NCBI GenBank assembly: GCA_035527835.1
Contig: DATKZS010000116.1
Location: 19,984 to 83,983 of the forward strand
Reading direction: 5' to 3'
From: a bacterium
GTDB lineage: Bacteria > RBG-13-61-14 > DATKZS01
Length of the DNA: 64,000 bases
Position numbers and translations under genes: made by a program. This document shows, piece after piece, positions 24,073 to 63,029 of this stretch. How positions within the stretch are numbered: position 1 is the stretch's first letter; the number at the start of each line of letters is the position of its first letter. The notes below the pieces were generated by a model. That model was given only the letters and a program-made list of their open reading frames with translations. It made no database searches and had not been told where the DNA came from.

Positions 24073-24178
24073 TACCTTTCTCCTCCTTTTTCTGTTGCCT
24101 GTAAATATGGGCTGCGCCGATGCCGGTGCATAATGGCCATCTTCGCACCCTTCCAACCACTTGTCCGCCCGATCCGAT

Positions 24179-24361
24179 GGTAGGCCCGACACTCTTGTCG
24201 GGCCGGCGCGGGACAAGAGTGTCCCGCCTACTACTCGATGGTGGGCCCGACACTCTTGTCGGGCCAGAGCGGGACAGGAGTGTCCCGCCTACCTTGCACG
24301 GGGTGGGACCGGAGTGTCCCGCCTACCTTGCACGGAGCGGGACCGGAGTGTCCCGCCCACC
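24179..24361. repeat. BIME-like cluster of six GTAG/GTGG-type REP units
   Basis: GGTAGGCCCGACACTCTTGTCGGGCC-type units at 24179 and 24240; GCGGGAC(A/C)(A/G)GAGTGTCCCGCC(T/C)AC-type units at 24208, 24269, 24303 and 24337; the last two lie in a 34-bp tandem. Confidence 0.85.
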
Positions 24362-24363
24362 AT

Positions 24364-26578: not shown

Positions 26579-26626
26579 CTCTCCCCTCCTCCAATCATGC
26601 AGGAGCGACTTCAGTCGCGACCCGCT

Positions 26627-26737
26627 CGAATGTCGTAGCTCGAATGTCGTAGCGCGAATGTCGTAGCGCGAATGTCGTAGCGCGGAGGAAGCGTGGATCT
26701 TCACGCCATTCGCTCTCCGCCCTACGCTATTCGTCGC
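26627..26737. repeat. 14-bp tandem repeat x4 with a complementary heptamer arm
   Basis: CGAATGTCGTAGC(T/G) at 26627, 26641, 26655 and 26669; ATTCGCT/CTACGCT-like arm at about 26708-26737. Confidence 0.85.
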
Positions 26738-26738
26738 T

Positions 26739-28040
26739 TCAGATCTTCCGCTTGTCTATCACCCTCTTGGCCTTGCCCTCGCTCCGCGCGATGCTCCGCG
26801 GCTCCGTGAGCTTCACCTTCGCGTTCACTCCCAGGTAGTCCTTGATGTCGTGCTCGATCTTCCTGGTGAGCGAGTCAAGCTCCTTCATCTCGTCCGAGAA
26901 CAGCTTCTCGCTCATCTCGATCTGGACCTCCATCACGTCCAGGTTGTTCACCCGGTCCACGATGATCTGGTAGTGCGGCTCCAGGCCCTCCACGTCCAAA
27001 AGCACGTGCTCGATCTGGCTCGGGAACACGTTCACGCCCCGGATGATCAGCATGTCGTCCGTCCGCCCCGTGACCCGGCTCATCCGGGCCGCGGTCCGGC
27101 CGCATACGCACCGCTCCTGGTTCAACGAGCTCAGGTCCCGCGTCCGGTAGCGGATCAGCGGGAAGGCCTCCTTGGTCAGCGTCGTGAACACCAGCTCGCC
27201 CTTCTCGCCCGGCTTAAGCGCCGCCCCCGTCTGCGGGTTGATGATCTCCACCAGGAAATGGTCCTCGTAAACGTGCGGGCCGCTCTGCCCCTCCACGCAC
27301 TCGCACGAGACCCCCGGACCCATCACCTCCGACAGGCCGTAGATGTCAATCGCCTTGATCGAAAGCCGCTTCTCGATCTCGGAGCGCATGTTCTCGCTCC
27401 ACGGCTCGGCCCCGAGAACGCCGACCTTGAGCGGAAGCTTTTTCCAGTCCACCCCCAGCTTGTCCCCGACCTCGGCCAGGTTCAGGGCATAGGACGGGGT
27501 GCAGCAGATCACGTCCGGGCCGAAGTCAACCAGCAGCATGATCTGGCGCTGCGTCTGCCCGCCCGACACCGGAACCACCGTGGCCCCCAGCCGCTCCGCC
27601 CCGTAATGCGCCCCCAGGCCGCCCGTGAACAGCCCGTAGCCGTAAGCGTTGTGGATGATGCTCCGGGGCGTCGCGCCCGCCGACACGAACGACCGCGCCA
27701 TCAGCTCCGCCCACATCGCGATGTCCTTCCTGGTGTACCCCGCCACCGTGGGCTTGCCCGTGGTCCCCGAGCTCGCGTGGATCCGAACCACCTTGTTCAT
27801 GGGCACCGCGAACATCCCGAACGGGTAGTTGTCCCGCAGGTCCTGCTTCACCGTGAACGGCAGCTTCTCCACGTCCTTTAACTTCTTGATGTCCCCGGGC
27901 TTCACTCCCGCCCGGTCAAAAGACTTCTTGTAAAAGGGGACCTTGCGGTACGCCCGGTCCGCCAGCGCCTTCAGCCGCTCGAGTTGCAGGGCCTCGAGCT
28001 TCTTCCGGGGCAGCCTTTCCTCTTCGCTCCTGATCGCCAC
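26739..28040 (-). CDS. paaK: Phenylacetate-CoA ligase family protein (paralog 2)
   Basis: [56 protein letters not shown]; GGAGGA RBS before GTG 28040. Confidence 0.92.
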
Positions 28041-28782: not shown

Positions 28783-28848
28783 AAAATCAGGTTCTTCATT
28801 TCCCGGAGCGGGCCTGGGAAAGTAAGGTTGATGCCGTCTTGAGGCGGG

Positions 28849-28941
28849 TAGGGCGTAGAGAGTAGGGCGCAGGGCGTGGGAAACCGCTACATTGCCGCCG
28901 ATTCGATTTACGCCCTTCGCCCTTCGCTCTACGCCCTACGC
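28849..28941. repeat. Inverted pair of heptamer tandem arrays
   Basis: TAGGGCG-like x4 (28849-28876) facing CGCCCT(T/A)-like x4 (28911-28941). Confidence 0.8.
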
Positions 28942-29176
28942 GATCCGCGCCCATGTTTCCATTCTCCCGCGCGAAGAACCTTAAAATTAAAGCGCCGGCT
29001 GCCGCGCACAGGGAACACGGCCAGCCGGCTCCTCGCAACGACAGGTGGGAATTGCGAGTGCTATTTACGATACTCCATCTTGGGCCGGAGATCAAGGAAA
29101 AAAATTCTGGTTTTTCGATGCGGTCAAATATCAAAAAGCATGGCCTGGCGATTAACCGGCGCGATAAGGGGCCGCT

Positions 29177-33625: not shown

Positions 33626-33780
33626 TGGAGCTGGTTTCATAACCCTCCCAAGCATCCCCAACAAGAAGATCAGGAACAAGGATGTTAAGGATTTCAAGGA
33701 TAAATCCGGGACTTTTCTTATCCTGATTATCCTTAATATCCTTGTTTCTTATTCTTGAAATGGTTATGAAACCGGTTCTA
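33626..33780. mobile_element. MITE-like element A, copy 2 (empty-site allele for element B)
   Basis: Ends TGGAGCTGGTTTCATAACCC ... TGGTTATGAAACCGGTTCTA; internal CAAGGAT/ATCCTT nonamer hairpin; a single TCTT at 33753-33756. Confidence 0.7.
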
Positions 33781-40789: not shown

Positions 40790-40873
40790 GAGACGGGATT
40801 AACAGGATTTACAGGATGAAAAGAAACAAAAGGCGTATTCCGAAAATCCTGTAAATCCTGTTAATCCCGTCTC
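40790..40873. repeat. Perfect 28-bp inverted repeat built from nonamer units
   Basis: GAGACGGGATTAACAGGATTTACAGGAT (40790-40817) and its exact reverse complement (40846-40873). Confidence 0.9.
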
Positions 40874-41024: not shown

Positions 41025-41260
41025 AAGAGTTTTACACGGATGGAACGGATTTGAACGGATTTCACGGATCGGACCAGGAGATCAGTGCGATCCGTATCCC
41101 ATCCGTCGGCGTCAAGTTGAATCGCGCCCCTTCAAGTCATCGAGATCAGTGCTCTTTTCCCAGGCTTACGGATGGAAACTGATCTCACGGATTGGGAAGT
41201 TTCCCGCCATTCTCTGATCCGTGACATCCGTCGCATCCGTGTTCATCCGTGTAAATTCTT
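41025..41260. repeat. Composite nonamer-repeat element (two nested hairpins)
   Basis: ACGGAT-containing units on the left arms and ATCCGT units on the right arms; outer ends AAGAGTTTTACACGGATG / CATCCGTGTAAATTCTT. Confidence 0.75.
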
Positions 41261-43323: not shown

Positions 43324-43951
43324 CCAGAAAAGGCAGCGGCCCGGCCCCAGAGCCGGCTTTGACCCCGGCGCCCCTGCCCCGAATGCCCCGGCCGGGCCCC
43401 CGCCCGGCGACTATTTCCCGCCACCCGCTGACCCGTACGGCCAATTTTACCAGCAAGGGCCCCTGGGCCAGGCCCCCGGCAAGGGACCCTCCACCGCAAA
43501 GATCATGATCTTCACCGGATGCGGATGCCTCACCTTGATCGGCGTCGCCGTGGCGGCCCTGTTCATCTGGGCCATGACCCTGCCCGACTACGGCGCCATC
43601 CACGGCGACAAGCTCACCCCCGAGATCACCGAGTACCTCTACTCGCACGACCTGCTGGCCGCGGACGAGAACGTCATCTACTTTTACGACAACACCCTCT
43701 ACCTCACCAACGAGGACCTGTGCTTCTTCACCGACCGGAAGATCGTCTCTTACCTGGAAGGAGAACGAAACGACCAGGTCCCATGGGAGGACGTGGAGGA
43801 CATCGAGAGCGGAGAGGCCTTCCTGGCCTTTACCATCACCGTCAAGGCCGAGGACCACCGCTTCCTCAAGTGCGAGATAAAGACCGATGACAACGAAGAC
43901 CTCTTTTACAAGGCCCTGCTCGACACCTGGGAGGAGAAGAAAGCCGAGTAA
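43310..43951 (+). CDS. Hypothetical membrane protein (Pro-rich N-terminus, one TM, possible PH-like domain)
   Basis: Pro/Gly-rich first 60 aa, hydrophobic segment, host-like codon usage; 14-bp overlap with the upstream gene. Confidence 0.7.
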   Translation: MMKINQKRQRPGPRAGFDPGAPAPNAPAGPPPGDYFPPPADPYGQFYQQGPLGQAPGKGPSTAKIMIFTGCGCLTLIGVAVAALFIWAMTLPDYGAIHGDKLTPEITEYLYSHDLLAADENVIYFYDNTLYLTNEDLCFFTDRKIVSYLEGERNDQVPWEDVEDIESGEAFLAFTITVKAEDHRFLKCEIKTDDNEDLFYKALLDTWEEKKAE

Positions 43952-43971
43952 TTGTAAGAAAGGTGTAAGGC

Positions 43972-45002
43972 GGGGTCAGGTCTTAACATTTAACATTCGA
44001 CCTTGACTTCGCTCCCGGGGGGTTGTAAGATTCCGGGCATGGCCCGGCCATGGAGGATAGAATTCCCCGAGGCGGTCTACCACGTGACCGCCCGCGGCAA
44101 CAACCGCGCCGCCGTCTTCCAGGGCGACGCCGACCGCCGCGACTTCCTCGCCCTCCTCGCCGCCGCCGGTCTCCGCTTCAACCTGAAAATCTTCGCCTTC
44201 TGCCTCATGACCAACCACTACCACCTCTTCTTCCGCACCCCCGACGCCAACCTCACCCGCGCCATGCACTGGCTCAACGCCACCTACACCATCCGCATGA
44301 ACCGCCGCCATCGCCGCTCCGGCCACGTCTTCCAGGGCCGGTACAAGGCCATGCTCGTCAGCGACACCGCCCACTGGAGCGTGCTCTCCATCTACATCCA
44401 CCTCAACCCCGTCCGCGCCGGCATCGTCACGCATCCCGCCGACTACGAGTGGTCCAGCTTCCGCGACTACGCCCGCGCCCGACCGCTCCACGACTGGCTC
44501 CGGCCCGATGACGTGATCGCAGACTACGGCGCAACCCCCGCCGCCCGCCGTAAAAGATACGCCGCCGACCTCACGGCCCGGTCCGCGGAGCGCCGCTCAT
44601 ACTGGAAGAATTTTCAGGCCGCGATGCAGGAGGCGGCGCGGGAAGAAATGCGGACGCTCGCCCCGCGCCATCCGCCGCGCGGCAATAAATCCGCGGTCCC
44701 CGAATTCAAATTGGCATCACCCCGGCCCGGCCTCGCCGCCGGCCTGGCCCAGGTCGCCGACGCCTTCGCAACCGACGTCCCGCAAATCCTCTCCACCCGC
44801 CGCAACGGCCCCGCCCGCCTCGCCGCATACTGGCACCTGACCCGGAACCTCGGGATCAGGCCGGGAGAGGTCGCGGCAATCTTCAACATCACCGGCGCCG
44901 CCGTCACCATGGGGGCCAAACGCTTCGAACACAATCTCCAATCCGAAAAGCCCCTCCATGACCAAACAAGGAGGCTAATGTTAAATGTTAAGACCTGACC
45001 CC
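43972..45002. mobile_element. RAYT unit bounded by perfect 26-bp inverted repeats
   Basis: GGGGTCAGGTCTTAACATTTAACATT at 43972-43997 and its exact reverse complement at 44977-45002. Confidence 0.88.
44039..44998 (+). CDS. REP-associated tyrosine (Y1 HUH) transposase with C-terminal helical/HTH extension
   Basis: MARPWRIEFP..YHVTARGNNR, CLMTNHYHL (HUH), HVFQGRYKA, YIHLNPVRAG, YEWSS. Confidence 0.92.
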   Translation: MARPWRIEFPEAVYHVTARGNNRAAVFQGDADRRDFLALLAAAGLRFNLKIFAFCLMTNHYHLFFRTPDANLTRAMHWLNATYTIRMNRRHRRSGHVFQGRYKAMLVSDTAHWSVLSIYIHLNPVRAGIVTHPADYEWSSFRDYARARPLHDWLRPDDVIADYGATPAARRKRYAADLTARSAERRSYWKNFQAAMQEAAREEMRTLAPRHPPRGNKSAVPEFKLASPRPGLAAGLAQVADAFATDVPQILSTRRNGPARLAAYWHLTRNLGIRPGEVAAIFNITGAAVTMGAKRFEHNLQSEKPLHDQTRRLMLNVKT

Positions 45003-45036
45003 ATCCGCCGCCCCATCCGCCTGACCATCCGCCTGA
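45001..45036 (+). repeat. 12-bp tandem repeat x3 at the right RAYT end
   Basis: CCATCCGCC(GCC/TGA) at 45001, 45013 and 45025. Confidence 0.8.
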
Positions 45037-45068
45037 TAAAAAATATATTTATCAATGTCGGCGGCTTT

Positions 45069-46064
45069 TTGCAAAGAAATGTTTGGACTATCGTTCCCGC
45101 GCTGGGCGCGTTAGGCGGGATAATCATTGTAATTGGAATGCCTTTTCTGAACTTTGGAGGCGACAGCTTGCGGGAGAGCTCCAAAAACGCCGAATGCGGC
45201 CATGACCTTCAGGAAAGCCTTCGCGCCTTCAGTCAGCAAATGGATATGCAATATGATATTGGAGCTGATGATTATAAAGTTATTTTTAATACGGGTGAAA
45301 TTCAAAAGGAATATTATCGTGACGGAATACGCTACACTGCGTATTTTCATCTGGATAAAACTGATTCCGGGTGTTGCCTGAAATTCTACAAGCGGGGAAT
45401 GAAGGAGCCCGGCGTTCAAACAACCTCTTTAGGCAACTATGGCAGCATTGCCCTGGATAAATGCCAGTGTAATGGCGGGAAGGACCAGGCTGCCGGGCCG
45501 AGCGGGGAGGGGGAAAAGGTTCAGGAGAGGATTGAGCCCAAAGAGGGGAAAAATTTTATCTGGATCGACCTCGGGAAAAAGGATCAAGCTTTGCTTCTGA
45601 CTCTGGCGCCGAACAGCGGTGATGGGATCACCGAACCGGACGTTAAATCAGGCGTTGATTGCAGGAAATTACCTTTCCCCTATGACGGGTCCGGTGATAA
45701 CCACATGTATTTTGGGATTGATGATGAATTTCTGCGTAGCGGCAATAATGAGGTCTGGATCGTCATGGAATATTTCGACAGCGGGACCCGGATAAACTGC
45801 CAGTATGACGGCAATGGCGCAGGGCCCGTGGACGGAGCGTTCCGGGGAGCTCATGATGGGGCCTTTCCCATGCTGGAGTTAACGAACACCAATACGTGGA
45901 AATTTCATGGATGGCACATCACGGACGGAAAATTCGCCAACCGCTGTAACGGTTTTGATTTCCGGTTCTCAACTCATGCCGGAGGCAGTATGTGGGTTAA
46001 CCGGGTATGGCTTTTCCTTTATGAACCGCCGGACCCTTTCAATCCCGGCGCCATATTGCCGTAA
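45069..46064 (+). CDS. Low-GC hypothetical membrane-anchored two-domain protein; C-terminal domain resembles a carbohydrate-binding beta-sandwich
   Basis: Open frame 44985-46064, TTG 45069 a plausible start; N-terminal TM; C-terminal YFGIDD..VMEYFD.G..QYD..TNTWK..F.N..NGFDFR pattern. Confidence 0.7.
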   Translation: MQRNVWTIVPALGALGGIIIVIGMPFLNFGGDSLRESSKNAECGHDLQESLRAFSQQMDMQYDIGADDYKVIFNTGEIQKEYYRDGIRYTAYFHLDKTDSGCCLKFYKRGMKEPGVQTTSLGNYGSIALDKCQCNGGKDQAAGPSGEGEKVQERIEPKEGKNFIWIDLGKKDQALLLTLAPNSGDGITEPDVKSGVDCRKLPFPYDGSGDNHMYFGIDDEFLRSGNNEVWIVMEYFDSGTRINCQYDGNGAGPVDGAFRGAHDGAFPMLELTNTNTWKFHGWHITDGKFANRCNGFDFRFSTHAGGSMWVNRVWLFLYEPPDPFNPGAILP

Positions 46065-46074
46065 TTCTGGAGAC

Positions 46075-46159
46075 AAACGCAGACGGGGTCAAAACGCAGA
46101 CGGGGTCAAACGCAGACGGGGTCAAACGCAGACGGGGTCAGGTCTTAACATTTAACATT
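46075..46159 (+). repeat. 16-bp tandem repeat x4 running into a third copy of the 26-bp RAYT end
   Basis: AAACGCAGACGGGGTC at 46075, 46092, 46108 and 46124; GGGGTCAGGTCTTAACATTTAACATT at 46134-46159. Confidence 0.9.
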
Positions 46160-46264
46160 GTCCTTTGGGTCTTTGTGGTTCTCTTCTTTTCCCTCTGTCC
46201 GCTTGCCGGCGCGGCGGCGGAGAATAAATATTTTTTCCAGCGAACACTATGGTGGTGCCTCTCT

Positions 46265-46530
46265 TCCCCAGGGGATGCCGTGGACGTCCAACCCTGGGCT
46301 CTGTTAAGGAGGCCCCGTTGGGGCTTTGGAGTGCGATGGCTTGACGTCGCTTTCCGGTCCGGGGCTTGACTCGGACCATTATCGCAGACGTCAATCCATT
46401 ATTGGACTCAGATTCAGCCGGCCCCCGGTTCTTTTCAATATTCCAAGCTTGGACCCGGGTGAATTGAAGAGGAAGAGGGGGCGTCAAGCCGCCCCGAAGA
46501 AAAGCGCCGTCGAGCCGGCGCACTCCAAAG
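46265..46530. repeat. Cluster of further REP-like elements
   Basis: CCCAGGG...CCCTGGGCT...CCCCGTTGGGG unit at about 46265-46323; imperfect inverted pair CTTTGGAGTGCGATGGCTTGACGTCGCTTT (46324-) / AAAGCGCCGTCGAGCCGGCGCACTCCAAAG (-46530). Confidence 0.65.
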
Positions 46531-46562
46531 CGCGTTGCGCCGGCGTTGGGGGAAGGTTCCGC

Positions 46563-46676
46563 CGTCCCGGGACTTCGCGCAATACTCCTGAATAGCTGAA
46601 ACTTGAACCTTCAATCCATACTTCTGCTTGTCCTCGTTTGTTGAGATCCGAACGTACCGCCCTGATTTTTGCGCAC
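46563..46676 (-). pseudogene. 5' remnant of a serine recombinase
   Basis: Manual translation ..GRYVRISTNEDKQKYGLKVQVSAIQEYCAK (Y-x-R-x-S-T catalytic motif, then Q..I.EYC); GGAGA RBS and GTG 46676 one base out of frame across an A5 run; similarity ends near the REP cluster. Confidence 0.6.
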
Positions 46677-46686
46677 TCTCCTGCTG

Positions 46687-46780
46687 GGGGCTTGGGGCTT
46701 GGGGCTAAAGGCGTGGTTCGAGAGGCGCGGCATACGCATCGTCCGTTGCTCCAAGCTTCAAGCTCGACGCCCCAGGCCTC
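46687..46780. repeat. Inverted pair of heptamer arrays
   Basis: GGGGCT(T/A) x3 facing CCAAGCT/TCAAGCT/CCCCAGG-like units. Confidence 0.6.
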
Positions 46781-46837
46781 GCTCGCCGCGGCTCATTGCT
46801 GTTGTTACGCTGAGCGGCGTATGTTAACATTCCGGTT

Positions 46838-49327
46838 ATGAGCCCGCAGTCGAGCCGGCACGAACAGATCCAGGACGCGGCCCTGCGTGACCTGCGCCGC
46901 CGCCGCCGCGAGCGGGTCGGCATCGTGGCCGCGGCCCTGCTCGTCACCGGACTCCTCTACCTCGCCATTCACCTCTCCCGTTTCGCCGAGCAGAGCACCC
47001 TGATGCAGCCGTTCGTCATCTATTTCTTCAACTTCGCGGTCTGGGCGCTGCTGGTGGTCCTGATCCTGGTGCTGGTGTTCCTGATCGTGCGTAACGTGGC
47101 CAAGTTCGTCCTGGAGCGCCGCCGCGGCGTGCTCGGCTCGAAGATCCGCATCCGGCTGATTATGGTTTTCATGTCGCTCACCCTGGGCCCGGCCGCCGTG
47201 CTTTTTTTCCTGTCCACCTTCATTCTCAACACCTCCATCGAGCGGCTCTACTCGCCGCACGTGGCCAACATGGTGAGCTCGTCCAAGGACGTGATCCAGG
47301 CCTCCGCCCGCATCAGCGAGGCCGCCCGCGAGATCGTCGAGGGCAAGTACGAGGCGGACGGCGAGGACGCGCTCCACTTTGCCCAGGAAATCTCCCGCGC
47401 CATCCTGGAGCAGGGATGGATCAGCGCGCTCACCGGCGAGGACACCACGGTCCCCAAACCGGGCCGGCAAGCGGCCGACGCGAACCTGGGAATCTCCACC
47501 GAAAGCGCCCTGGACATGGGCCCGACCGGATCATCCCCCAGCCCGCCCTCCATGAGCGAGCAGCTCTCCCACTTCCTCGAATACAAGCGCCGCGAGTACA
47601 ACCTGGCCTTGGTGGCGGTGTTCGACAAGTCGGGAAGAGCGGTGGTCCGCACCGACGCCCCGGGCTTGAAGCTCCCGGAGGTCCCGGCCGCGGACATCGA
47701 GAAGGCGCTCTCCGGCGAGCAGGGCTTTAACCCTCCGGTGTCGGTGGGGGACGGCGCCGTCATTTACGCGTTTTATCCGGTCCCTCGCCGGGGCACGGAC
47801 AGCAAGGAGATCGCGGGAGTGGCCGCGGCCGGCCGTTACATCAGCTGGATCCCGGAGCGGCAGTGGAAGGAGCTCTCCATCGCCGACGATTCCAAGGACG
47901 TGATCCGCGACTACGAGACCCTGGCCCGGCTCGAACTCCCGGTCAAGGCCTCGTACTTCATCCTCCTCGTCATGGTGACCCTCATCGTCATCTTCCTCGC
48001 CATCTGGTTCGGCTTCTACATGGCCAAGGGCATCACCGAGCCCATCCAGCTCCTGGCCGAGGGCACCGCCATGGTCAGCTCCGGAAACCTCGACTACCGG
48101 ATCGAGGTCGCCGCCGAGGGCGACGACGAGATCTCCACCCTGGTCCGCTCCTTCAATAAAATGACCGGCGACCTCGGAAAGAGCCGCGCCGAGCTGCAGG
48201 AGACCTACCAGAACCTGGCCAAGTCCAACCTCGAGCTCGAACAGCGGCGCCGCTACATGGAGACCGTCCTGGCCCAGGTCGCCGCCGGGGTCATCTCCGT
48301 GGACCGCGAGGAAAACGTCTCCACCGTCAACACCGCCGCCCTGCGCATGTTGGGGAAGAGCGCGGCCAACGAGGTCATGGGCCGGCCCCTGTCCCAGGTG
48401 CTCGGACCCGAGGACATGGAGGTCTACCGCGCCCTGGTCGCCGAGCTGGCCGGCAAGGACAAGGAGATCGTCCAGCGCCAGGTCAACATGGTCAGAAAGC
48501 AGCGCACCGTGGTCCTGCTCATAACCGTGTCCCCCCTCAAGGACGAGAAGGGCAACCCGCTCGGAATGGTCATCGTCATTGACGACATGACCGAGCTGAT
48601 CCGGGCCCACCGCGCCATGGCCTGGAGAGAGGTCGCCCGCCGCATCGCCCACGAGATCAAGAACCCGCTCACCCCCATCCAGCTCTCCGCCCAGCGCCTC
48701 GAACGACGCTACGCCGAGACCCTCCAGGGGGAGGACGCCAAGATCTTCTCCGAGAGCGTCCACACCATCATCACCCAGGTCGAGGAGCTGAAACACCTGG
48801 TCAACGAGTTCTCCCTCTTCGCCCGGCTCCCCTCAACCTCCCCCGAGCCCTCCGACCTCCACCAGATCATCCGCGAGGTCCTGCCCCTCTACCGCGAGGC
48901 CCACGCCAACATCGCCTTCCAGTTCATCGAGGACCCGAGGCTGCCCTCCCTCGAGCTCGACCGCGAGCAGATGAAGCGCGTGCTCATCAACCTCCTCGAT
49001 AACGCCGCCGCCAGCATCGAGGGAGAGGGACAGGTCTTCATCGAGATCATGTACAACCCGCAGCTCCAGCTCGTCCGCCTTGAAATCCGGGACACCGGCC
49101 AGGGCATCCTGCCCCACGTCAAGGACCGGCTCTTCGAGCCTTACTACTCCACCAAGCCCCACGGCTCCGGGCTCGGGCTCACCATTGTCCAGCGCATCAT
49201 CTCCGACCATTACGGGTACATCCGTGTCGTTGACAACGAGCCCCGCGGCACCAAGATGATCATCGAGCTCCCCGTCATCCTGGCCGAGCGCCACGTCCGC
49301 GACCTCGACCGCGCCAAGACCATGTGA
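46838..49327 (+). CDS. NtrY-like sensor histidine kinase (TM-HAMP-PAS-HisKA-HATPase)
   Basis: AWREVARRIAHEIKNPLTPIQLSAQR, NLLDNA, DTGQG, PYYSTKPHGSGLGL. Confidence 0.92.
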   Translation: MSPQSSRHEQIQDAALRDLRRRRRERVGIVAAALLVTGLLYLAIHLSRFAEQSTLMQPFVIYFFNFAVWALLVVLILVLVFLIVRNVAKFVLERRRGVLGSKIRIRLIMVFMSLTLGPAAVLFFLSTFILNTSIERLYSPHVANMVSSSKDVIQASARISEAAREIVEGKYEADGEDALHFAQEISRAILEQGWISALTGEDTTVPKPGRQAADANLGISTESALDMGPTGSSPSPPSMSEQLSHFLEYKRREYNLALVAVFDKSGRAVVRTDAPGLKLPEVPAADIEKALSGEQGFNPPVSVGDGAVIYAFYPVPRRGTDSKEIAGVAAAGRYISWIPERQWKELSIADDSKDVIRDYETLARLELPVKASYFILLVMVTLIVIFLAIWFGFYMAKGITEPIQLLAEGTAMVSSGNLDYRIEVAAEGDDEISTLVRSFNKMTGDLGKSRAELQETYQNLAKSNLELEQRRRYMETVLAQVAAGVISVDREENVSTVNTAALRMLGKSAANEVMGRPLSQVLGPEDMEVYRALVAELAGKDKEIVQRQVNMVRKQRTVVLLITVSPLKDEKGNPLGMVIVIDDMTELIRAHRAMAWREVARRIAHEIKNPLTPIQLSAQRLERRYAETLQGEDAKIFSESVHTIITQVEELKHLVNEFSLFARLPSTSPEPSDLHQIIREVLPLYREAHANIAFQFIEDPRLPSLELDREQMKRVLINLLDNAAASIEGEGQVFIEIMYNPQLQLVRLEIRDTGQGILPHVKDRLFEPYYSTKPHGSGLGLTIVQRIISDHYGYIRVVDNEPRGTKMIIELPVILAERHVRDLDRAKTM

Positions 49328-58762: not shown

Positions 58763-60385
58763 TCAGTAGATCTTCAGGTGCTGGCCTTGCCAGAAAGTGC
58801 ATTTTCCCGCGTCTTCCGTGGCGCGGACGGATTGGGGCAGGTCGAGGTACATGCGGGAGCGGGAGGACGATTCGTAGCGGGGCCAGGCCATGAGCCCGGG
58901 GCCGTTGGGGTCGCCGGTCTTGGCGAAATTGGTCCAGTAGCTCATCATGTCCTCGGAGAGCGGCGCGGCCTCCGCGATCAGCCGCTCCGTGAAGAACTGG
59001 TCCATGTCCGGGCGGTCCAGGGTGGAGAAGATGAACGGGATTTCGAGCGCGTGGGCCGCGCCGAACAGGTGCGGCGCCAGGTGGCGGTCGTAATCGAAGC
59101 GGTAGTAATAGACCGGCGTGAAGGGGGATGCGGCCTGGGCCGCGTCAAAGCACTTGCAGGCGAGCATGGCGTCGCCGAGCGCGGCGCTGAGCGCGTCCGC
59201 CGGCCGGCGGTAGTCGGAAAAAGGATACAGCCGCTCGATCTCGGCCAACAGCCCATCGCCGAAGCTCTGGCGTACCACCATCCGGACGAGCGGCCGCGGC
59301 GCCAGCCGCACCCCCGGCATGCCCACCGTGAAAATCTTGGCCTCGTCCCGGTTCGCGCCCACCAGCAGCGGCACCCGCTGGAAGCGGCCCGCCCGCAGCG
59401 CCTCGATCGGTATCTCCGGGAGCGCCCACCCGTCCCGATGCGCCAACCAGGTGTACCGGAGTATCGCGGCCAGATCGAGCGGGTTGGTGTCGTTCTTCTT
59501 AGGCTGATCCGCCCGGATTTCCGCGACCGGCTTTGAACGCAGGCACTCGATCACGCCGTCGCCCCCGCAACCCATGCGGGCCGCGAATTCTTCTCCGGCG
59601 GCGTAGCCCTGTTCCATCGGCGCCACCGCGTCGCACCCGCCGCTCTGGATGACGGCCTGGTGGAACAGCCCGGCCGAGAGCGGGCTGACGAGCAGGTTGC
59701 ACACGCTCCAGCCTCCCGCCGACTCGCCGAAGACCGTGATATTGTCCGGGTCGCCGGCAAAGGCCGCGATGTTCCCGCGCACCCACTTGAGCGCCGCGAT
59801 CTGGTCGAGAAAGCCGTAGTCGCCGGAGCTGGAATGCGGGTCCTCCGAGCTGAGCGCCGGCAGGGCCAGGAACCCGAACACGCCGATCCGGTAGTTGATC
59901 GTCACCACCACCACGTCCCGCGACCCGGCCAGGCGCGACCCGTCGTACATCGGCGCGTTGCCGGAACCCGTCTCCAGCCCGCCGCCGTGCATCCAGAACA
60001 TCACAGGAAACGTCCCGCTCTTTTGCGGACGCCACACGTTCAGATACAGGCAGTCCTCGCTGATCTCCGTCTTGGGGTCGCTCGCGGTCAAGAACCCCCT
60101 GGCGATCGGCTGCACGCACCACGGCCCGTACTCGCCGGCCTCCAGCACGTCTTCATGAGCGGCCGGTAACGCCGGCGGCCGCCACCTGAGCCCGCCCACC
60201 GGCGGCGCGGCGTAGGGGATGCCCAGGTAAGCGCAGGCCGCGTCCGCGTCATGGCCCGCTACCTGGCCGTACGCGGTCCGCGCCGGTTCCGCGCACAACT
60301 CATCCGCCCGCGCCGTCGCGGCCGTGAAAATCAGCGCCAGTGCGGCCGCGCCGATTAATATTTTCCCGCGTCCGTTCATGCTCAT
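58763..60385 (-). CDS. Exported type-B carboxylesterase (paralog 1)
   Basis: SEDCLYLNVW, HGGG, GESAGG, NRDE, GAAHALEI; signal peptide; ATGA overlap. Confidence 0.92.
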   Translation of the reverse strand: MSMNGRGKILIGAAALALIFTAATARADELCAEPARTAYGQVAGHDADAACAYLGIPYAAPPVGGLRWRPPALPAAHEDVLEAGEYGPWCVQPIARGFLTASDPKTEISEDCLYLNVWRPQKSGTFPVMFWMHGGGLETGSGNAPMYDGSRLAGSRDVVVVTINYRIGVFGFLALPALSSEDPHSSSGDYGFLDQIAALKWVRGNIAAFAGDPDNITVFGESAGGWSVCNLLVSPLSAGLFHQAVIQSGGCDAVAPMEQGYAAGEEFAARMGCGGDGVIECLRSKPVAEIRADQPKKNDTNPLDLAAILRYTWLAHRDGWALPEIPIEALRAGRFQRVPLLVGANRDEAKIFTVGMPGVRLAPRPLVRMVVRQSFGDGLLAEIERLYPFSDYRRPADALSAALGDAMLACKCFDAAQAASPFTPVYYYRFDYDRHLAPHLFGAAHALEIPFIFSTLDRPDMDQFFTERLIAEAAPLSEDMMSYWTNFAKTGDPNGPGLMAWPRYESSSRSRMYLDLPQSVRATEDAGKCTFWQGQHLKIY

Positions 60386-62025
60386 TTCCGTTCCTTCTTT
60401 CTCGTGCCCAGGCTCTCGAGCGATCCCTTGTGCGTCTTGGTGTACTCGTCCCAGAAGGCGCAACGCGCCACGTTGGGGGCCGGTTCCGTGCGCACCGTGG
60501 CATCGAAGACCTGGACCATCCGCGTGTCCGGATTGAACGCGGGCCACTGGGGCAGGCCCTGGCCGTTGGGATCGCCGGTCTTGGCGAAGTTGAGCCAATA
60601 GCCCCGGATGACGCGGCCGAGCGCGCGGGCCGGGGCGATGTTCTGGTCGTTGTAAAAGAGGCTCATGGGCAGGCGGTCGAAGGAGTCGAAGATGAAGGGG
60701 ATCTCCATGGCGTGCGCCGCGCCCATGTACTTGCCGAATCTGAAGTCGTCGTAATCGAAGCGGTAGTAATAGGTGTCCTGCTGCTGCCGGGCCGCGGCCA
60801 GCAGGCCCTCGTAAGTGGGGCAGGCCAGGCTGGCGTCCGCGCCCAACATGCGGCCGTAGGCCTCCACCGGACGGTTGCCGTAATCGCCGAGCGGATAGAG
60901 CGCCGTGAGCTTCGCGGCGTCTTCCGGCGCGATGCCGATGACATCAATCAGGGTCTTCTCGTAGTCTGAGGGCTTGGCGTTTTTTAAGTCGCGCTTGAGC
61001 TTCATGGCCTTGCCGAACTCGTCGCGGTTGGACCCGGCCATGAACGACACGCGGTTGTAATCGCCGGCCCGGATCATGGCGAGCGACGTCGCGGTGAGCA
61101 GCCAGCCGTCGTGATGCGGCATGAACCCCATGCCGGACGTGAGTCCCGACGCGCCCTTGTCCTCGACCTGCTTGGCGGACAGCCGGCGCAGGCAGGCCAG
61201 GTCGTCGGGCCGGCAGCCGAGGTTCGCGGCGATGGAGTCGCCCTGCGCGTAGCCGGGTTCGAGGTCCGCGCTCACGTCGCAGCCGCCGCTCTCCAGGATG
61301 GCGCGCTGAAACAGGCCTTTCGCGAGCGGCGTCGCGATCATGGTGCAGATGGAAAAGCCCCCGGCCGATTCGCCGAAGATGGTGACGTTTTCCGGGTCGC
61401 CGCCGAAGGCCGCGATGTTGGCGTGGACCCATTGAAGAGCCGCGACCTGGTCGAGCGAGCCGTACGAGCCCACCGACCCGTTCTTGTCCTCCGCCCGGAG
61501 CGCGGCGAGCGCCAGGAACCCGAAAACGTTGAGCCGGTAATTGGTGGTAACCACCACCACGTCTCCGGCCTGCGCCAGACGGTCACCCCAGTACATCGGA
61601 GTAAACGCCGCGCCGCCCACGTAGCCCCCGCCGTGGATCCACACCATCACCGGGAACGTCCCGCTCTTCCTCGGACGCCACACGTTAAGGTACAGGCAGT
61701 CCTCGGACATGCCCTCCTTCCCGGCCAGGCCCTCCAGCGCCATCACGCCCTTCTGCAGGCACCGGTCGCTGAACGCGAGCGCGTCGCGCACCCCGGACCA
61801 CGGCGCCGGCGGCTCGGGCGCCTTCCACCGCAGCTCGCCCACCGGCGGCGCCGCGAACGGGATCCCCTTCCACACGCACGTCTCCGTCCCCGTCTCCGCC
61901 GCGCCCCGCACCATCCCCGCGCCCGTCCGCACCGGCTCCGTGCAAACATCCTCCGTTCCCGCGCGCCCCGCGCCGATCAGAATCACAGCGCAGCAGATAA
62001 TAAAAATAGCCCTTACCTTTTTCAT
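60382..62025 (-). CDS. Exported type-B carboxylesterase (paralog 2)
   Basis: SEDCLYLNVW, HGGG, GESAGG, NRDE, GAAHAMEI; signal peptide. Confidence 0.92.
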   Translation of the reverse strand: MKKVRAIFIICCAVILIGAGRAGTEDVCTEPVRTGAGMVRGAAETGTETCVWKGIPFAAPPVGELRWKAPEPPAPWSGVRDALAFSDRCLQKGVMALEGLAGKEGMSEDCLYLNVWRPRKSGTFPVMVWIHGGGYVGGAAFTPMYWGDRLAQAGDVVVVTTNYRLNVFGFLALAALRAEDKNGSVGSYGSLDQVAALQWVHANIAAFGGDPENVTIFGESAGGFSICTMIATPLAKGLFQRAILESGGCDVSADLEPGYAQGDSIAANLGCRPDDLACLRRLSAKQVEDKGASGLTSGMGFMPHHDGWLLTATSLAMIRAGDYNRVSFMAGSNRDEFGKAMKLKRDLKNAKPSDYEKTLIDVIGIAPEDAAKLTALYPLGDYGNRPVEAYGRMLGADASLACPTYEGLLAAARQQQDTYYYRFDYDDFRFGKYMGAAHAMEIPFIFDSFDRLPMSLFYNDQNIAPARALGRVIRGYWLNFAKTGDPNGQGLPQWPAFNPDTRMVQVFDATVRTEPAPNVARCAFWDEYTKTHKGSLESLGTRKKERK

Positions 62026-62111: not shown

Positions 62112-63029
62112 TCAGGATTTATTATCAAGCACCTGGTCGAGGAAGTCGAGGATGGCGCGGAGGTAGGGGAAGTCGTCGCGGTTTTCGAGGTAGTTGAACT
62201 CGTGCCTGGCATCGGCGACGAAGAAGGCCTTGTTGTACACTCCCTTCTGGTCGAGGGCGTTATGGAGGAAGTCGGATTCGGGGAACACGGAGTCGGCGGT
62301 GCCGCACATGATGAAGAAGGGCGGGATGTCCTTGCGGTCAAGGTAGGACGCGGGCGAGGCCTTTTTGTATTCGAGGGGCTTTTGCTCGGGCGTGCCTCCC
62401 ATGAAGGCCACGACCATGGGCCGGGTGAGGATGAGGCCCCACAGTTTGGGGTCCTGGTTGGCGATCCAGTCCATGCGGTAGCCGCCGTACATGAGCACGC
62501 CGGCCTGGACCCGGGCGCTGTAGCGTCCGTCGCCGGCGTAGGTGGGCGTGAAATACGGGTCGTCCCAGGCCAGGGCCACCATGGCCGAGAGATGGCCTCC
62601 CGCCGAGTCTCCCATCACCGCCACGCGGGCGGGGTCGCCGTGGTAGAGCTCGGCCTTCTCCTTGGCGTAGATCACCGCGCCCATGGCGTCGTTGACCGCC
62701 GCCGGGAACCGGGCCTCCTGCGACAGCCGGTAGTTGGCGTTGAACACCACGTACCCGGACTGCGCCAGCAGGCGCATGCGGTGGCGGAACATGGACTTGT
62801 CACCCATGGACCAGCCCCCGCCGTGGAGGTAAACGATCATTGGGTATGAGCCGTCGGCCATGGGCCAGGCGACGTCGAGCTTGAGGCTGCCGGTCGAAGT
62901 ATCGGCATAGGTCACGTCAAAGATGGTGTCCACCTTCGGCACCACCACCACCTCGTCCCCGGCCCGCGCCGGAGAAAAAAACAGCAGCAACAATAAACCG
63001 GTTATAGCGGCGATCCTATCTTGCTTCAT
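62112..63029 (-). CDS. Exported alpha/beta hydrolase (HSL/BD-FAE-like esterase)
   Basis: LHGGGW, GDSAGGHL, GTADSV, RHEF; signal peptide from MKQDRIAA.. Confidence 0.9.
   Translation of the reverse strand: MKQDRIAAITGLLLLLFFSPARAGDEVVVVPKVDTIFDVTYADTSTGSLKLDVAWPMADGSYPMIVYLHGGGWSMGDKSMFRHRMRLLAQSGYVVFNANYRLSQEARFPAAVNDAMGAVIYAKEKAELYHGDPARVAVMGDSAGGHLSAMVALAWDDPYFTPTYAGDGRYSARVQAGVLMYGGYRMDWIANQDPKLWGLILTRPMVVAFMGGTPEQKPLEYKKASPASYLDRKDIPPFFIMCGTADSVFPESDFLHNALDQKGVYNKAFFVADARHEFNYLENRDDFPYLRAILDFLDQVLDNKS

What the first reader, a model, noticed from the sequence alone, without database searches (positions are those of the whole stretch)
44977..46159. Low-GC cargo gene held between two RAYT ends, with tandem amplification at both junctions
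Seen: a third exact 26-bp end at 46134 faces the right end at 44977, enclosing about 1.1 kb of lower-GC DNA. The left junction has three 12-bp units reusing the outer CCTGACC bases; the right junction has four 16-bp units each ending in GGGGTC, the start of the repeat. Inference: iterative HUH cleavage/strand transfer at the repeat foot duplicates end-plus-flank and can capture foreign genes, i.e. a RAYT-driven gene-capture or array-building system.
Basis: partly seen in the sequence, partly recalled or inferred. Interest (0 to 1): 0.7.

Follow-up and report, generated by a model that had tools for sequence, protein, structure and literature searches.

The report
TIRtron with junction repeats and cargo
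A known but little-studied mobile-DNA gene (a TIRYT tyrosine transposase between 26-bp inverted ends) sits beside a foreign gene closed off by a third copy of the end. Short tandem repeats of variable copy number pile up at those ends, a pattern that recurs across many phyla and may be a footprint of the enzyme's activity.

Summary
Three exact 26-mers lie at 43972(-), 44977(+) and 46134(-). There is a 12-bp x3 array at 45001-45036 and a 16-bp x4 array at 46074-46140. The DNA between copies 2 and 3 has GC3 0.55, against 0.82-0.93 in the neighbours.

The "RAYT" is a TIRYT, and the unit is a TIRtron (Di Nocera 2013; Quentin 2018, subclass 2.1.2). It has a Y1-HUH domain, a DnaA-domain-IV-like HTH, non-palindromic TIRs and the outer motif GGGGWSAS.

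Copy 3 is a solo member of a dispersed composite repeat. It is not an end made at this locus.

The 16-bp array has 3, 4 or 5 units in otherwise identical assemblies. Tandem duplications straddling the outer TIR boundary occur at about 11% of about 300 independent TIR copies from many phyla. The rate 60-200 nt further out is 2.5% (p=3e-9). Most junctions have 0-2 nt of microhomology.

The cargo is a foreign, membrane-anchored protein with a CBM-like jelly-roll domain. Its first ~10 or so codons are replaced by an ATG in the TIR plus the array.

The layout TIRYT, TIR, low-GC gene-sized segment, inverted TIR recurs at three other TIRtrons with unrelated contents.

HUH-driven duplication and capture remain inferred.

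The parts
43972..43997 (-). TIR copy 1 (left end of the TIRtron; reads GGGGTCAGGTCTTAACATTTAACATT on the + strand). No tandem array on its outer side.
   Evidence: Exact match; 100% complementary to copy 2 with 979 nt between, (I15); sequence.
44003..44031 (+). Promoter-like site (TTGACT-17-TAAGAT) just inside the left TIR, upstream of the TIRYT gene. A similar TTGAC motif sits at the same place in L006 and L009.
   Evidence: Consensus scan; sequences. A consensus match only.
44039..44998 (+). TIRYT gene (319 aa). N-terminal Y1-HUH domain with H60/H62 and Y119 invariant in the family. C-terminal DnaA-domain-IV-like HTH. The last seven codons and the TGA stop (44996-44998) lie inside TIR copy 2.
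   Evidence: PF01797 E=4.9e-15. NCBIfam REP_Tyr_transpos 74.3 bits (cut-off 80). 38-sequence alignment. The profile matches A. aeolicus DnaA residues 214-313 at E=1.4e-3. PF08299 is found in 4 of 38 members.
44969..44987 (+). Outward-reading translation start carried by the TIRYT 3' end and TIR: AGGAGG (44969-44974), 10 nt, then ATG (44985-44987) in the +1 frame relative to TIRYT. It opens the cargo ORF.
   Evidence: Read from the sequence; ORF 44985-46064. The same AGGAGGCTAATGTTAAATG... start opens a 46-aa ORF at the solo TIR L006:1408.
44977..45002 (+). TIR copy 2 (right end of the TIRtron).
   Evidence: Exact match.
45001..45036 (+). 12-bp x3 tandem array (CCATCCGCCGCC / CCATCCGCCTGA / CCATCCGCCTGA). 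It starts in the last bases of the TIR, is in frame with the cargo ORF (4 codons per unit), and is invariant among assemblies.
   Evidence: TRF; comparison of assemblies; N-terminal alignment.
44985..46064 (+). Cargo ORF (359 aa as called). It has a signal-anchor helix, an alpha/beta N-domain and a C-terminal jelly-roll (CBM-like) domain. Homology to relatives starts near residue 18, so the native first ~10 or so codons are replaced by TIR plus array. GC3 is 0.55.
   Evidence: ORF. 77 homologues; the C-terminal ~170 aa are 55-74% identical to ~220-aa proteins. Alignment with P0122/P0123. AlphaFold2 model with mean pLDDT 79 and mostly 81-97 in residues 151-320. Foldseek hits to CBMs, the gingipain adhesin domain and the Eph ligand-binding domain. 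Composition. No Pfam or NCBIfam hit.
46074..46140 (+). 16-bp x4.1 tandem array (CAAACGCAGACGGGGT). Read outward from copy 3, each unit is TGACCCC plus 9 nt of flank. There are 3, 4 or 5 units in different assemblies. It begins 9 nt after the cargo stop codon.
   Evidence: TRF; direct repeats D12; copy-number differences.
46134..46159 (-). TIR copy 3: a solo copy in the same orientation as copy 1. Its outer end faces the outer end of copy 2.
   Evidence: Exact match; inverted repeat I3 (37 nt, 89%).
46160..46200 (+). Inner flank of copy 3 (GTCCTTTGGGTCTTTGTGGTTCTCTTCTTTT...). It is one arm of a second repeat type (CTTTGKG heptamers). The same TIR-plus-arm composite occurs at L182:580 and L150:12820, on a contig from a sister sample.
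   Evidence: MAFFT alignment of solo copies.

Best explanation
What it is (shown). The locus is a TIRtron: a gene for a TIRYT, the TIR-associated Y1-HUH tyrosine transposase (TnpA_REP subclass 2.1.2, with a C-terminal DnaA-domain-IV-like HTH). It lies between two perfect 26-bp terminal inverted repeats. Their outer end is GGGGTCAG and their inner part is two 7-nt tandem units (AATGTTA AATGTTA). A third, solo TIR lies 1.1 kb downstream and belongs to a dispersed composite repeat family. Between the outward-facing ends of copies 2 and 3 lies one horizontally acquired gene. It encodes a membrane-anchored protein with a CBM-like jelly-roll domain. Its native start has been replaced, so it now reads in frame from an SD and ATG supplied by the TIRYT 3' end and TIR, overlapping the TIRYT stop codon.

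How the junction arrays arise (inferred). They are one instance of a family-wide property. The outer boundary of this TIR is a hot spot for short tandem duplications of 9-60 bp, occasionally about 170 bp. These straddle the boundary, need little or no microhomology, and then vary in copy number like any minisatellite. The most likely cause is TIRYT bound to, and nicking and rejoining at, the GGGG/CCCC end of the TIR. Synthesis from the nick followed by religation of the displaced strand would give duplications anchored at the end. Ordinary slippage then expands or contracts the perfect 16-bp array.

How the cargo got there (unresolved). Both foreign/host junctions coincide with TIR outer ends, and three other TIRtrons show the same layout with unrelated low-GC inserts. 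TIR-end-directed insertion is therefore plausible but not shown. I put TIR-end-directed insertion, enzymatic or by recombination, at about one third.
For: Identity:
- PF01797.
- Invariant HUH and Tyr residues in 38 homologues.
- DnaA domain IV match E=1.4e-3 and PF08299 in 4 of 38 members.
- The 26-mer has no self-structure, MFE 0.
- The outer motif fits the published GGGGWSAS, and the published description has TIRs as singles, dimers and groups.

Dispersal:
- An exact solo copy at L006:1408.
- 70 metagenome stretches with the exact 25-mer.
- At least 118 genome stretches across more than 15 phyla matching ATGTnnnATGTnnAGACCTGAnCCC.
- 132 of 196 adjacent pairs are inner-facing doublets or TIRtrons.
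- TIRYT genes only 27-36% identical to this one are flanked by almost the same TIR.

Arrays:
- 3, 4 or 5 units among otherwise identical assemblies.
- Other polymorphic end duplications: L007 against L006/L008 (170 bp), L009 against L010, L190 against L138.
- Enrichment: 29/245 against 31/2052 random positions, p=8e-14. Also 33/294 against 29/1176 positions 60-200 nt further out, odds ratio 5.0, p=2.7e-9.
- Solo copies (21%) carry arrays more often than tight doublets (7%). That is the opposite of what a local-hairpin stalling model predicts.
- Junction microhomology is 0-2 nt in 30 of 36 cases, against 35 of 60 control arrays.

Cargo:
- GC3 is 0.55 against 0.82-0.93 in the neighbours.
- Its nearest relatives come from 42-47% GC loci.
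- N-terminal replacement.
- Fold.
- Recurrent layout at L009, L103 and L208.
Against: - No biochemical data exist for any TIRYT, so its cleavage site is unknown.
- The duplicated units start at several positions inside the TIR. They cluster at -1/-2 and -8 to -4, but also occur at -15 to -46 and include whole-TIR duplications. A single nick site cannot explain that.
- Only assembled contigs were available for the runs that hold this locus. Within-sample heterogeneity, excision circles and empty junctions could not be looked for.
- Copy-number change of a perfect 16-bp x4 array needs no enzyme.
- Array frequencies by class rest on small numbers.
- The cargo/TIR association rests on four loci. 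Outward-facing TIR pairs enclosing native genes are common. Two further TIRtrons (L209, L213) have housekeeping neighbours and no cassette.
Confidence: 0.6

Rival explanations
1. Passive replication errors. The arrays arise and vary purely by slipped-strand mispairing or template switching, because paired TIR copies (or protein bound to them) stall the fork at the TIR boundary. No HUH cleavage is involved.
For: Copy-number change of 3, 4 or 5 units in a perfect 16-bp array is classic minisatellite behaviour. Unit start points inside the TIR are variable. The TIR end itself contains a short direct repeat (GACC-T-GACC) that could seed slippage. Larger duplications of 170-174 bp have 1-3 nt junction microhomology.
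Against: Tight doublets, which form the best hairpins, carry arrays least often (7% against 21% for solo copies). Most primary duplications show 0-2 nt of microhomology, less than control arrays. The enrichment is sharply localised at the boundary and is gone 60 nt further out.
Confidence: 0.3
2. Iterative HUH cleavage and strand transfer at the end both builds the arrays and captures foreign genes, so the three-TIR structure is an HUH-run gene-capture platform. In single-stranded DNA, copies 2 and 3 would pair into the same stem as a normal TIR pair, with the cargo as the loop. Cutting at CCCC| and |GGGG would then excise or insert the cargo as the reciprocal product.
For: Both foreign/host composition breaks fall at TIR outer ends. 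The layout (-)TIRYT(+), X, (-) with a low-GC, gene-sized and unrelated X is seen at the window (1131 nt), L009 (424 nt), L103 (769 nt) and L208 (521 nt). A head-to-head junction with only 8 nt between outer ends exists at L029. The TIR provides SD and ATG for the insert. The window segment is the most GC-deviant of 25 outward-facing intervals.
Against: The RAYT-cargo unit is found in a single context in all 7-8 contigs that carry it. The cargo's homologues have no TIR nearby. Copy 3 is part of another dispersed repeat. No junction arrays were seen at the cassette junctions of L103 and L208, read by eye. No empty or circular form was seen, though contigs cannot show rare forms. There are only four cases.
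Confidence: 0.2
3. The TIRs act as portable homology. This 25-26-nt sequence is nearly identical in distant phyla. Incoming DNA carrying a TIR-flanked gene could therefore replace the segment between two resident TIRs by RecA-type recombination, with no need for the transposase.
For: The TIR is extremely conserved across phyla. TIR-flanked genes are common in some genomes (L173, L193). The foreign segment is bounded by exact TIRs.
Against: 26 bp is at the lower limit for homologous recombination. The GC-rich arrays between the TIR and the AT-rich foreign DNA do not look donor-derived. The cargo has lost its native start, which a clean double crossover in the TIRs would not cause.
Confidence: 0.1
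4. Assembly artefact: the arrays or the third copy are mis-assemblies of short reads.
For: All sources are short-read metagenome assemblies. Logan k=31 contigs break inside the 16-bp array and at the TIR.
Against: The same architecture appears in five assemblies from ENA, JGI and Logan, besides the window. The arrays (36-80 bp) are shorter than a read. Analogous arrays occur at dozens of unrelated loci.
Confidence: 0.03

Closest known systems
TIRtron / TIRYT (Di Nocera, De Gregorio & Rocco 2013, BMC Genomics 14:522, PMC3733652)
   Same: A RAYT-like Y1-HUH gene flanked by long terminal inverted repeats instead of REP hairpins. The TIR outer motif is GGGGWSAS (here GGGGTCAG). The TIR overlaps the 3' end of the gene. 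TIR copies are dispersed as singles, dimers and groups.
   Different: The passages read of that paper (searched for 'TIRYT') mention none of the following: tandem duplications anchored at the TIR outer end, a low-GC passenger between the 3' TIR and an inverted third copy, an SD/ATG in the TIR, or near-identity of this particular TIR across more than 15 phyla.
TnpA_REP subclass 2.1.2 (Quentin, Siguier, Chandler & Fichant 2018, BMC Genomics 19:475, PMC6006769)
   Same: A Y1 domain plus a C-terminal Bac_DnaA_C/HTH extension. That paper equates the subclass with TIRYT.
   Different: That study reports finding no REP-like repeats near subclass 2.1 genes and doubts that the HTH reads the TIR. Here the TIR's inner half is two tandem 7-mers, a plausible double-stranded DNA target for the HTH (inference). 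The repeats are abundant.
REPIN-RAYT systems (Bertels & Rainey 2011, PMC3116915; RAYT groups 2 and 3)
   Same: A Y1 transposase gene flanked by its cognate repeat. Non-autonomous doublets in inverted orientation form hairpins and are spread through intergenic DNA.
   Different: The single repeat here is not a palindrome. The score against the NCBIfam RAYT model is below cut-off. A 79% paralogue occurs in the same samples. The same repeat is shared by distant phyla rather than being lineage-specific.
IS200/IS605 (IS608 TnpA) single-strand 'peel and paste'
   Same: The same catalytic fold, and presumably single-strand chemistry with cleavage at the foot of a DNA stem. In that mechanism the DNA between the right end of one element and the left end of the next is the reciprocal product. 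This is the basis for the cassette idea (established knowledge plus inference).
   Different: IS200/IS605 ends are two different subterminal hairpins with guide and cleavage tetranucleotides. They have no TIRs and no HTH domain. The NCBIfam IS200 model scores 15.6 against a cut-off of 55.
ISCR/IS91 rolling-circle capture and integron cassettes (analogies only)
   Same: A compact, promoterless gene inserted next to a recombination site and expressed from signals in the platform. In single-stranded DNA the cassette is flanked by sequences that can pair.
   Different: There is no Rep-like HUH transposase with distinct ori and ter ends, and no sign of an integron system (this was not specifically searched for). 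The enzyme here is a Y1 transposase and the sites are identical TIRs.

Membership tests
TIRtron / TIRYT | Encodes a Y1 (IS200-like) HUH tyrosine transposase domain with an intact HUH motif and catalytic Tyr | tested here: met
   PF01797 E=4.9e-15. H60, H62 and Y119 are invariant in 38 homologues.
TIRtron / TIRYT | The gene is flanked by terminal inverted repeats that are not themselves REP-type palindromes | tested here: met
   26/26 complementary arms 979 nt apart. Each arm alone folds with MFE 0 kcal/mol.
TIRtron / TIRYT | The TIR outer end fits GGGGWSAS | tested here: met
   GGGGTCAG at 43972-43979, and its complement at 44995-45002. Consensus quoted.
TIRtron / TIRYT (subclass 2.1.2) | C-terminal HTH related to Bac_DnaA_C / HTH_23 | tested here: inconclusive
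   The window protein alone gives no Pfam HTH hit. The family profile matches DnaA domain IV at E=1.4e-3. 4 of 38 members hit PF08299 and 3 hit HTH_23.
TIRtron / TIRYT | TIR copies form a repeat family (singles, dimers, groups) in the host genome | tested here: met
   The solo copy 3. Exact solo copies on contigs of sister samples (L006:1408, L140, L150, L182, L194, L200). Doublets in many genomes. The source genome as a whole was not available.
TIRtron / TIRYT | The enzyme binds, cleaves or mobilises its TIRs | not testable with these tools
   No biochemical data found in the two papers that mention TIRYT.
REPIN-RAYT (classical RAYT) | The flanking repeat is a 20-40 nt imperfect palindrome (REP), typically GTAG-tagged | tested here: not met
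   No self-complementarity. There is no GTAG tag; the outer end is GGGGTCAG.
REPIN-RAYT (classical RAYT) | Scores above the curated cut-off of the NCBIfam REP_Tyr_transpos model | tested here: not met
   74.3 bits against a cut-off of 80.
IS200/IS605 | Matches the IS200 transposase model; ends are two different subterminal hairpins; no TIRs | tested here: not met
   NF033573 scores 15.6 bits against a cut-off of 55. Perfect TIRs are present.
Gene-capture platform (integron-like or ISCR-like) | The same platform carries different cassettes, and a given cassette is found at different platforms or as a free or empty form | tested here: inconclusive
   Different low-GC inserts lie next to four different TIRtrons. 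This cargo is seen in one context only, and its homologues lack TIRs. No empty or circular form is detectable in contig-only data.

The most novel reading that the evidence does not exclude
TIRYT cuts single-stranded DNA at the GGGG/CCCC end of any stem formed by two TIR copies. DNA lying between two outward-facing TIR ends would then be the reciprocal product of transposition and would behave as an exchangeable cassette. Foreign single-stranded DNA would be spliced next to a TIRtron and translated from the SD and ATG built into the TIR. The copy-number-variable junction arrays would be scars of repeated cut-and-rejoin. This would amount to an integron-like gene-capture platform run by an HUH enzyme, on a site conserved from Atribacterota to Planctomycetes.
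Probability: 0.17. Interest if true: 0.85.

Novelty: new variant of a known kind. Interest (0 to 1): 0.6.

Why it matters
TIRYTs are a large family of HUH enzymes that, as far as I found, has not been studied experimentally: 1860 relatives were recovered here, and the library search found two papers that name them. Nobody knows whether or where they cut.

A duplication hot spot sits exactly at the TIR outer end. It is sharply localised, poor in microhomology and polymorphic, and is seen in hundreds of independent copies. This is a testable in-silico footprint of activity, and it points to where the cleavage site should be sought.

The near-identity of a 25-nt site in genomes from many phyla, including candidate-phyla-radiation and archaeal bins, is itself unusual, because the cognate proteins are only about 30% identical.

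If the recurrent low-GC inserts between outward-facing ends are enzyme-mediated, this would be a new route of gene acquisition that acts on single-stranded DNA and supplies translation signals. If they are not, the locus is still a clean example of how TIR repeats reshape gene starts, since a foreign gene is now translated from a start codon inside a transposon end.

Tried and rejected
1. Inversion or excision of the segments between inverted TIRs. The runs holding the locus (X1-X4) are available only as Logan contigs. The one 'joint' (43998 to 44976) has only the 27-nt TIR on one side, so it is ambiguous. No joint skipping the cargo was seen. Nothing can be concluded either way.

2. RNA evidence for co-transcription. 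No RNA run holds the stretch.

3. Known RNA families in 43800-46900. None at E<=1.

4. Empty allele. The only close relative of the upstream genes (L207, 85% nt identity) loses similarity at the stop codon. It has no TIR or TIRYT in the 254 nt that follow, but the contig ends before the next gene. This shows the TIRtron is lineage-specific and no more.

5. Literature search by TIR sequence. Only unrelated primer hits.

6. Phage carriage of the TIR. 0 matches in 2.9 million viral contigs.

7. 'RAYT/REP' membership. Rejected in favour of TIRYT.

8. The idea that tandem arrays reflect target-site duplications of the doublets. The flanks of doublets extend the palindrome and are not direct repeats (read).

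9. The idea that the outward-facing arrangement has a preferred short spacing, like a junction site. Spacings run from 8 to 7025 nt with no peak, apart from one 8-nt case.

10. Pfam, NCBIfam and sequence-level function for the cargo. No hit. Only the fold gave a lead.

11. P0021 locus. No DNA on file.
Full report
**1. The observation**

The 26-mer AATGTTAAATGTTAAGACCTGACCCC occurs exactly three times in the 64-kb window, at 43972-43997(-), 44977-45002(+) and 46134-46159(-). None is expected by chance.

Copies 1 and 2 are perfectly complementary arms 979 nt apart and enclose one ORF, 44039-44998. Copies 2 and 3 have their ...GACCCC / GGGGTC... ends facing each other across 1131 nt.

That interval has GC 0.45-0.54 against 0.65-0.70 around it. 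Its GC3 is 0.55 against 0.82-0.93 for the four neighbouring genes, including the transposase gene at 0.86.

Tandem Repeats Finder reports 45001-45036 (12 bp x3.0, 87%) and 46074-46140 (16 bp x4.1, 96%). CCTGACC of the repeat recurs in the 12-bp array. Each 16-bp unit ends in GGGGTC, and the last is the start of copy 3.

**2. Not an artefact, and variable**

The same locus is present in independent assemblies: L001/L004 and L003 from ENA, L002 from JGI, and L005 from Logan.

Over 2.5 kb they are identical to the window except for whole 16-bp units. L001 and L003 have 3 units, the window has 4 and L002 has 5. The 12-bp array does not vary.

**3. What the gene between copies 1 and 2 is**

It carries a Y1_Tnp domain (PF01797, E=4.9e-15). 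It falls just below the NCBIfam RAYT cut-off (74.3 against 80) and far below the IS200 model.

It belongs to a large family of proteins about 316-320 aa long. 1860 hits were recovered, and several paralogues occur in single MAGs. In an alignment of 38 members, the HUH histidines (H60, H62) and Y119 are invariant.

A profile of that alignment matches domain IV of Aquifex DnaA (E=1.4e-3, profile positions 219-313). Four members hit Pfam Bac_DnaA_C. The 26-mer does not fold on itself (MFE 0).

This is the entity named TIRYT/TIRtron by Di Nocera et al. 2013, whose TIR consensus is GGGGWSAS; ours is GGGGTCAG. Quentin et al. 2018 place it in TnpA_REP subclass 2.1.2, with a Bac_DnaA_C-like C-terminus. 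It is a RAYT relative but not a REP/RAYT system.

**4. The repeat family**

The closest homologues keep the architecture.
- P0003 (71% identity; L009) has the identical 26-mer at both ends. It has a third copy 424 nt beyond the right end, in the same orientation as in the window.
- P0002 (79%; L006-L008; same samples as the window) has a variant TIR. Its contig also holds an exact solo copy of the window's 26-mer.

The taxa were Atribacterota, Clostridia, several deltaproteobacterial lineages, Aminicenantes, Elusimicrobia, Aerophobetes, Planctomycetes, Verrucomicrobia, Methylomirabilota, Nitrospirota, beta- and gamma-proteobacteria, a Doudnabacteria bin and a Thermoplasmata bin. Only about four matches would be expected by chance in 596 Gb (my estimate), and the free positions are also non-random.

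The exact 25-mer of the window occurs in 70 metagenome stretches.

Among 386 copies, 132 of 196 adjacent pairs are inner-facing. These are tight doublets with preferred spacers of 2-4, 9-11, 32, 42 and about 75 nt, plus TIRtrons at 979-1007 nt. Another 33 pairs are outward-facing, with spacings of 8-7025 nt and no peak. The remaining 31 are tandem.

Some operons have a doublet in every intergenic gap (L173, L193). TIRYT genes only 27-36% identical to ours are flanked by almost the same TIR. The TIR is therefore far more conserved than the protein. No copy was found in viral contigs.

**5. Copy 3**

Its inner flank (46160 onward; AACCACAAAGACCCAAAGGACA when read toward the TIR) is shared with solo copies at L182:580 and L150:12820. 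Both lie on a contig from a sister sample, where that flank is one arm of a second, heptamer-built hairpin repeat.

Other solo copies in those samples (L140, L200, L168, L187, L194) carry an inner flank that resembles the 3' end of a TIRYT gene.

Copy 3 is thus a member of a dispersed composite repeat. It is not an end produced by local amplification.

**6. The junction arrays are a family-wide property**

Reading outward from the TIR, many unrelated copies show tandem units that begin with the last 2-7 bases of the TIR followed by 4-15 nt of flank. Examples:
- L131: GACCCC-ATGTGTATATA x3
- L042: TGACCCC-TATC x4
- L046, L033, L127, L141, L103
- L182: 9 nt x3
- L200 and L140

Others duplicate 13-25 nt of the TIR or the whole TIR plus flank: L073, L124, L172, L205, L045, L153, L190. 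The closest paralogue has a 174-bp tandem duplication of gene end plus TIR. In one sample only, it also has an exact 170-bp duplication of TIR plus gene start.

Counts with a simple detector:

| Comparison | At TIR boundary | Control | Statistic |
|---|---|---|---|
| Random positions in the same loci | 29/245 unique copies | 31/2052 | p=8e-14 |
| Looser TIR pattern | 40/327 | 110/5154 | - |
| 60-200 nt further out in the same flanks | 33/294 | 29/1176 | odds ratio 5.0, p=2.7e-9 |

The third comparison is the fairest control.

Array starts cluster at -1/-2 and at -8 to -4 relative to the TIR end, but also occur from -15 to beyond -46.

Junction microhomology is 0-2 nt in 30 of 36 cases, against 35 of 60 control arrays. 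Solo copies carry arrays more often (15/72) than tight doublets (17/229).

Several arrays differ between near-identical strains: the window locus, L009 against L010, L190 against L138, and L007 against L006.

**7. Reading of the arrays**

What is shown is a sharply localised, recurrent, polymorphic duplication hot spot at the outer TIR boundary.

My inference on cause is as follows. Three features make a purely hairpin-stalling/slippage origin less attractive:
- The scarcity of microhomology.
- The higher rate at solo copies.
- The loss of enrichment 60 nt away.

They fit a process tied to something acting at the TIR end. The obvious candidate is TIRYT nicking and rejoining, with limited synthesis from the nick before religation.

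The spread of start points is the main argument against one fixed nick. Once a perfect multi-copy array exists, slippage alone explains the 3, 4 or 5 units.

**8. The cargo**

Its C-terminal ~170 aa are 55-74% identical to a domain found in ~220-aa proteins of Poribacteria and others. Only two proteins share the N-terminal half: P0122 (73%) and P0123 (59%). Their loci have 42-47% GC, no TIR and no TIRYT.

An AlphaFold2 model has mean pLDDT 79, with block means mostly 81-97 from about residue 151 to 320. It shows a signal-anchor helix, an alpha/beta domain and a jelly-roll. The best PDB matches for the jelly-roll are carbohydrate-binding modules, the gingipain adhesin domain and the Eph ligand-binding domain. 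It is probably an extracytoplasmic binding protein. Its exact function is unknown.

Alignment with the two full-length relatives shows that homology begins near residue 18 of the called ORF. The native first ~10 or so codons are replaced by MLRPDP (from the TIR) plus PIRRPIRLTIRL (from the 12-bp array, four codons per unit).

The ORF starts at ATG 44985 inside the TIR, 10 nt after AGGAGG (44969-44974). It overlaps the TIRYT stop codon at 44996-44998. The same TIR-borne start opens a 46-aa ORF at the solo copy L006:1408. Translation from the TIR is inferred from sequence only, because no RNA data exist.

**9. Is the cargo 'captured'?**

Against capture:
- Outward-facing TIR pairs enclosing native genes are common.
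- The unit occurs in one context only.
- Copy 3 belongs to another repeat.
- Two further TIRtrons (L209, L213) sit between housekeeping genes with no insert. L213 has a doublet 110 nt downstream.

For capture:
- Both composition breaks coincide with TIR outer ends. The AT-rich foreign DNA starts right after the 12-bp array, and the 16-bp array starts 9 nt after the stop codon. No foreign DNA lies left of the TIRtron.
- In gene orientation, the layout (-)TIRYT(+), X, (-) with a low-GC, gene-sized and unrelated X recurs, as tabulated below.
- A head-to-head junction with only 8 nt between outer ends exists at L029.
- Of 25 outward-facing intervals, the window's is the most GC-deviant.

| Locus | X length | X GC against locus GC | Content |
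|---|---|---|---|
| L009 | 424 nt | 0.54 against 0.62 | - |
| L103 (Pirellulales) | 769 nt | 0.48 against 0.59 | A multi-TM ORF on the other strand, ending 6 nt from the TIR |
| L208 (51% homologue) | 521 nt | about 0.35 against 0.53 for the locus (0.60 in the flanking TIRYT gene) | A 160-aa ORF whose stop lies in a degenerate third TIR, GGGCTCAGGTCTTAAG |

In IS200/IS605-type chemistry, the DNA between the right end of one element and the left end of the next is the reciprocal product of excision. A TIR-end-directed exchange is therefore mechanistically conceivable (established knowledge plus inference).

With four cases and no mobile intermediate seen, I rate enzyme-mediated capture at about 0.2. 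I rate any TIR-end-directed insertion, including recombination on the conserved TIRs, at about one third.

**10. Comparison and novelty**

The element is a member of a known kind (TIRtron/TIRYT). In the parts I read of the two papers that name this class, the following are not described:
- The end-anchored, polymorphic tandem duplications.
- The recurrent low-GC insert closed by an inverted third TIR.
- The translation start inside the TIR.
- The cross-phylum near-identity of this TIR.

I therefore file the finding as a new variant of a known kind. It is of real interest to people working on HUH enzymes and bacterial repeats. The mechanism is unproven.

**11. Limits**

- All loci come from short-read metagenome assemblies or MAGs.
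- My array detector is simple and misses imperfect arrays.
- Some related strains may be counted twice despite de-duplication. A conservative recount still gives about 10% against 2-2.5%.
- The source organism was not identified.

Noticed in passing
window 21133-21225; 28845-28942; 40790-40873; 41031-41255; 25867-25995 and 33631-33758: Several intergenic hairpins have arms built of 7-10-nt tandem sub-repeats, for example AGAATAT..., GGATTAACA/GGATTTACA, ACGGATTT... and CAAGGATNT/TTATCCTNA. Their layout is similar to the TIR doublets: a GC-richer foot, tandem short units and a loop. Two copies (25867-25995 and 33631-33758) are 80-94% alike. They may be repeat families of other TIRYT-like genes elsewhere in the genome. 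Some units resemble DnaA boxes (TTATCCTGA).
   Followed up: partly
L019-L136 (genome scan) and L137-L206 (metagenome scan): The 25-nt TIR ATGTCAAATGTTGAGACCTGACCCC and its close variants are nearly identical in MAGs of more than 15 phyla, including a Doudnabacteria (CPR) bin and a Thermoplasmata (archaeal) bin. The associated TIRYT proteins are only 27-48% identical to the window's. Bin contamination cannot be excluded for the odd taxa.
   Followed up: partly
L006:8799-9145; L007:1035-1374 and 2075-2421; L008:1878-2224: The 79% paralogue has a 174-bp tandem duplication of its gene 3' end plus right TIR (98% identical copies), followed by a third, degenerate TIR end. One sample (L007) also has an exact 170-bp tandem duplication of the left TIR plus gene start, which is absent from L006 and L008.
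   Followed up: yes
L173:2340-6267; L193:2194-8427; L197: In one freshwater-sediment lineage, a run of genes (including a TIRYT gene) has a TIR doublet in every intergenic gap. The spacing is about 1.0-1.6 kb, like REP/BIME clusters in enterobacterial operons.
   Followed up: partly
L194:8675-8860: A complex cluster on a contig from a sister sample. It has two 95-nt-spaced direct copies of TIR plus TIRYT-like inner flank. These are followed by GTCTTCCC(C/G)-type tandem units and a partial TIR (TTAAATGTTAAGACCTGACCCC), which suggests repeated rounds of end duplication.
   Followed up: no
window 46323-46353 / 46501-46531: A 31-nt inverted repeat (87% complementary, 147 nt between the arms) lies in the 678-nt repeat-rich spacer between copy 3 and the histidine-kinase gene. 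A terminator-like stem at 46504-46521(-) lies within its right arm.
   Followed up: no
window 24175-24372 and 26624-26693: There is a 61-nt x1.9 plus 34-nt x2.8 array of palindromic units (GGGACAAGAGTGTCCCGCCTAC...), and a 14-bp x4.1 array (CGAATGTCGTAGCG). Each lies just upstream of one of two paralogous gene segments (24363-25486 and 26738-27864, about 74% identical).
   Followed up: no
window 59711-60224, 61357-61867 and 62595-62853: Three tandem paralogous gene segments, 72-86% identical over short stretches, spaced 1646 and about 1200 nt apart. They are unrelated to the finding.
   Followed up: no
L029:2714-2771: In a Methylomirabilota MAG, the TIR on the 5' side of a TIRYT gene is followed after only 8 nt (AATTACTT) by an inverted solo TIR. 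The two outer ends are therefore almost abutting. This is the arrangement expected for an 'empty' cassette site.
   Followed up: partly
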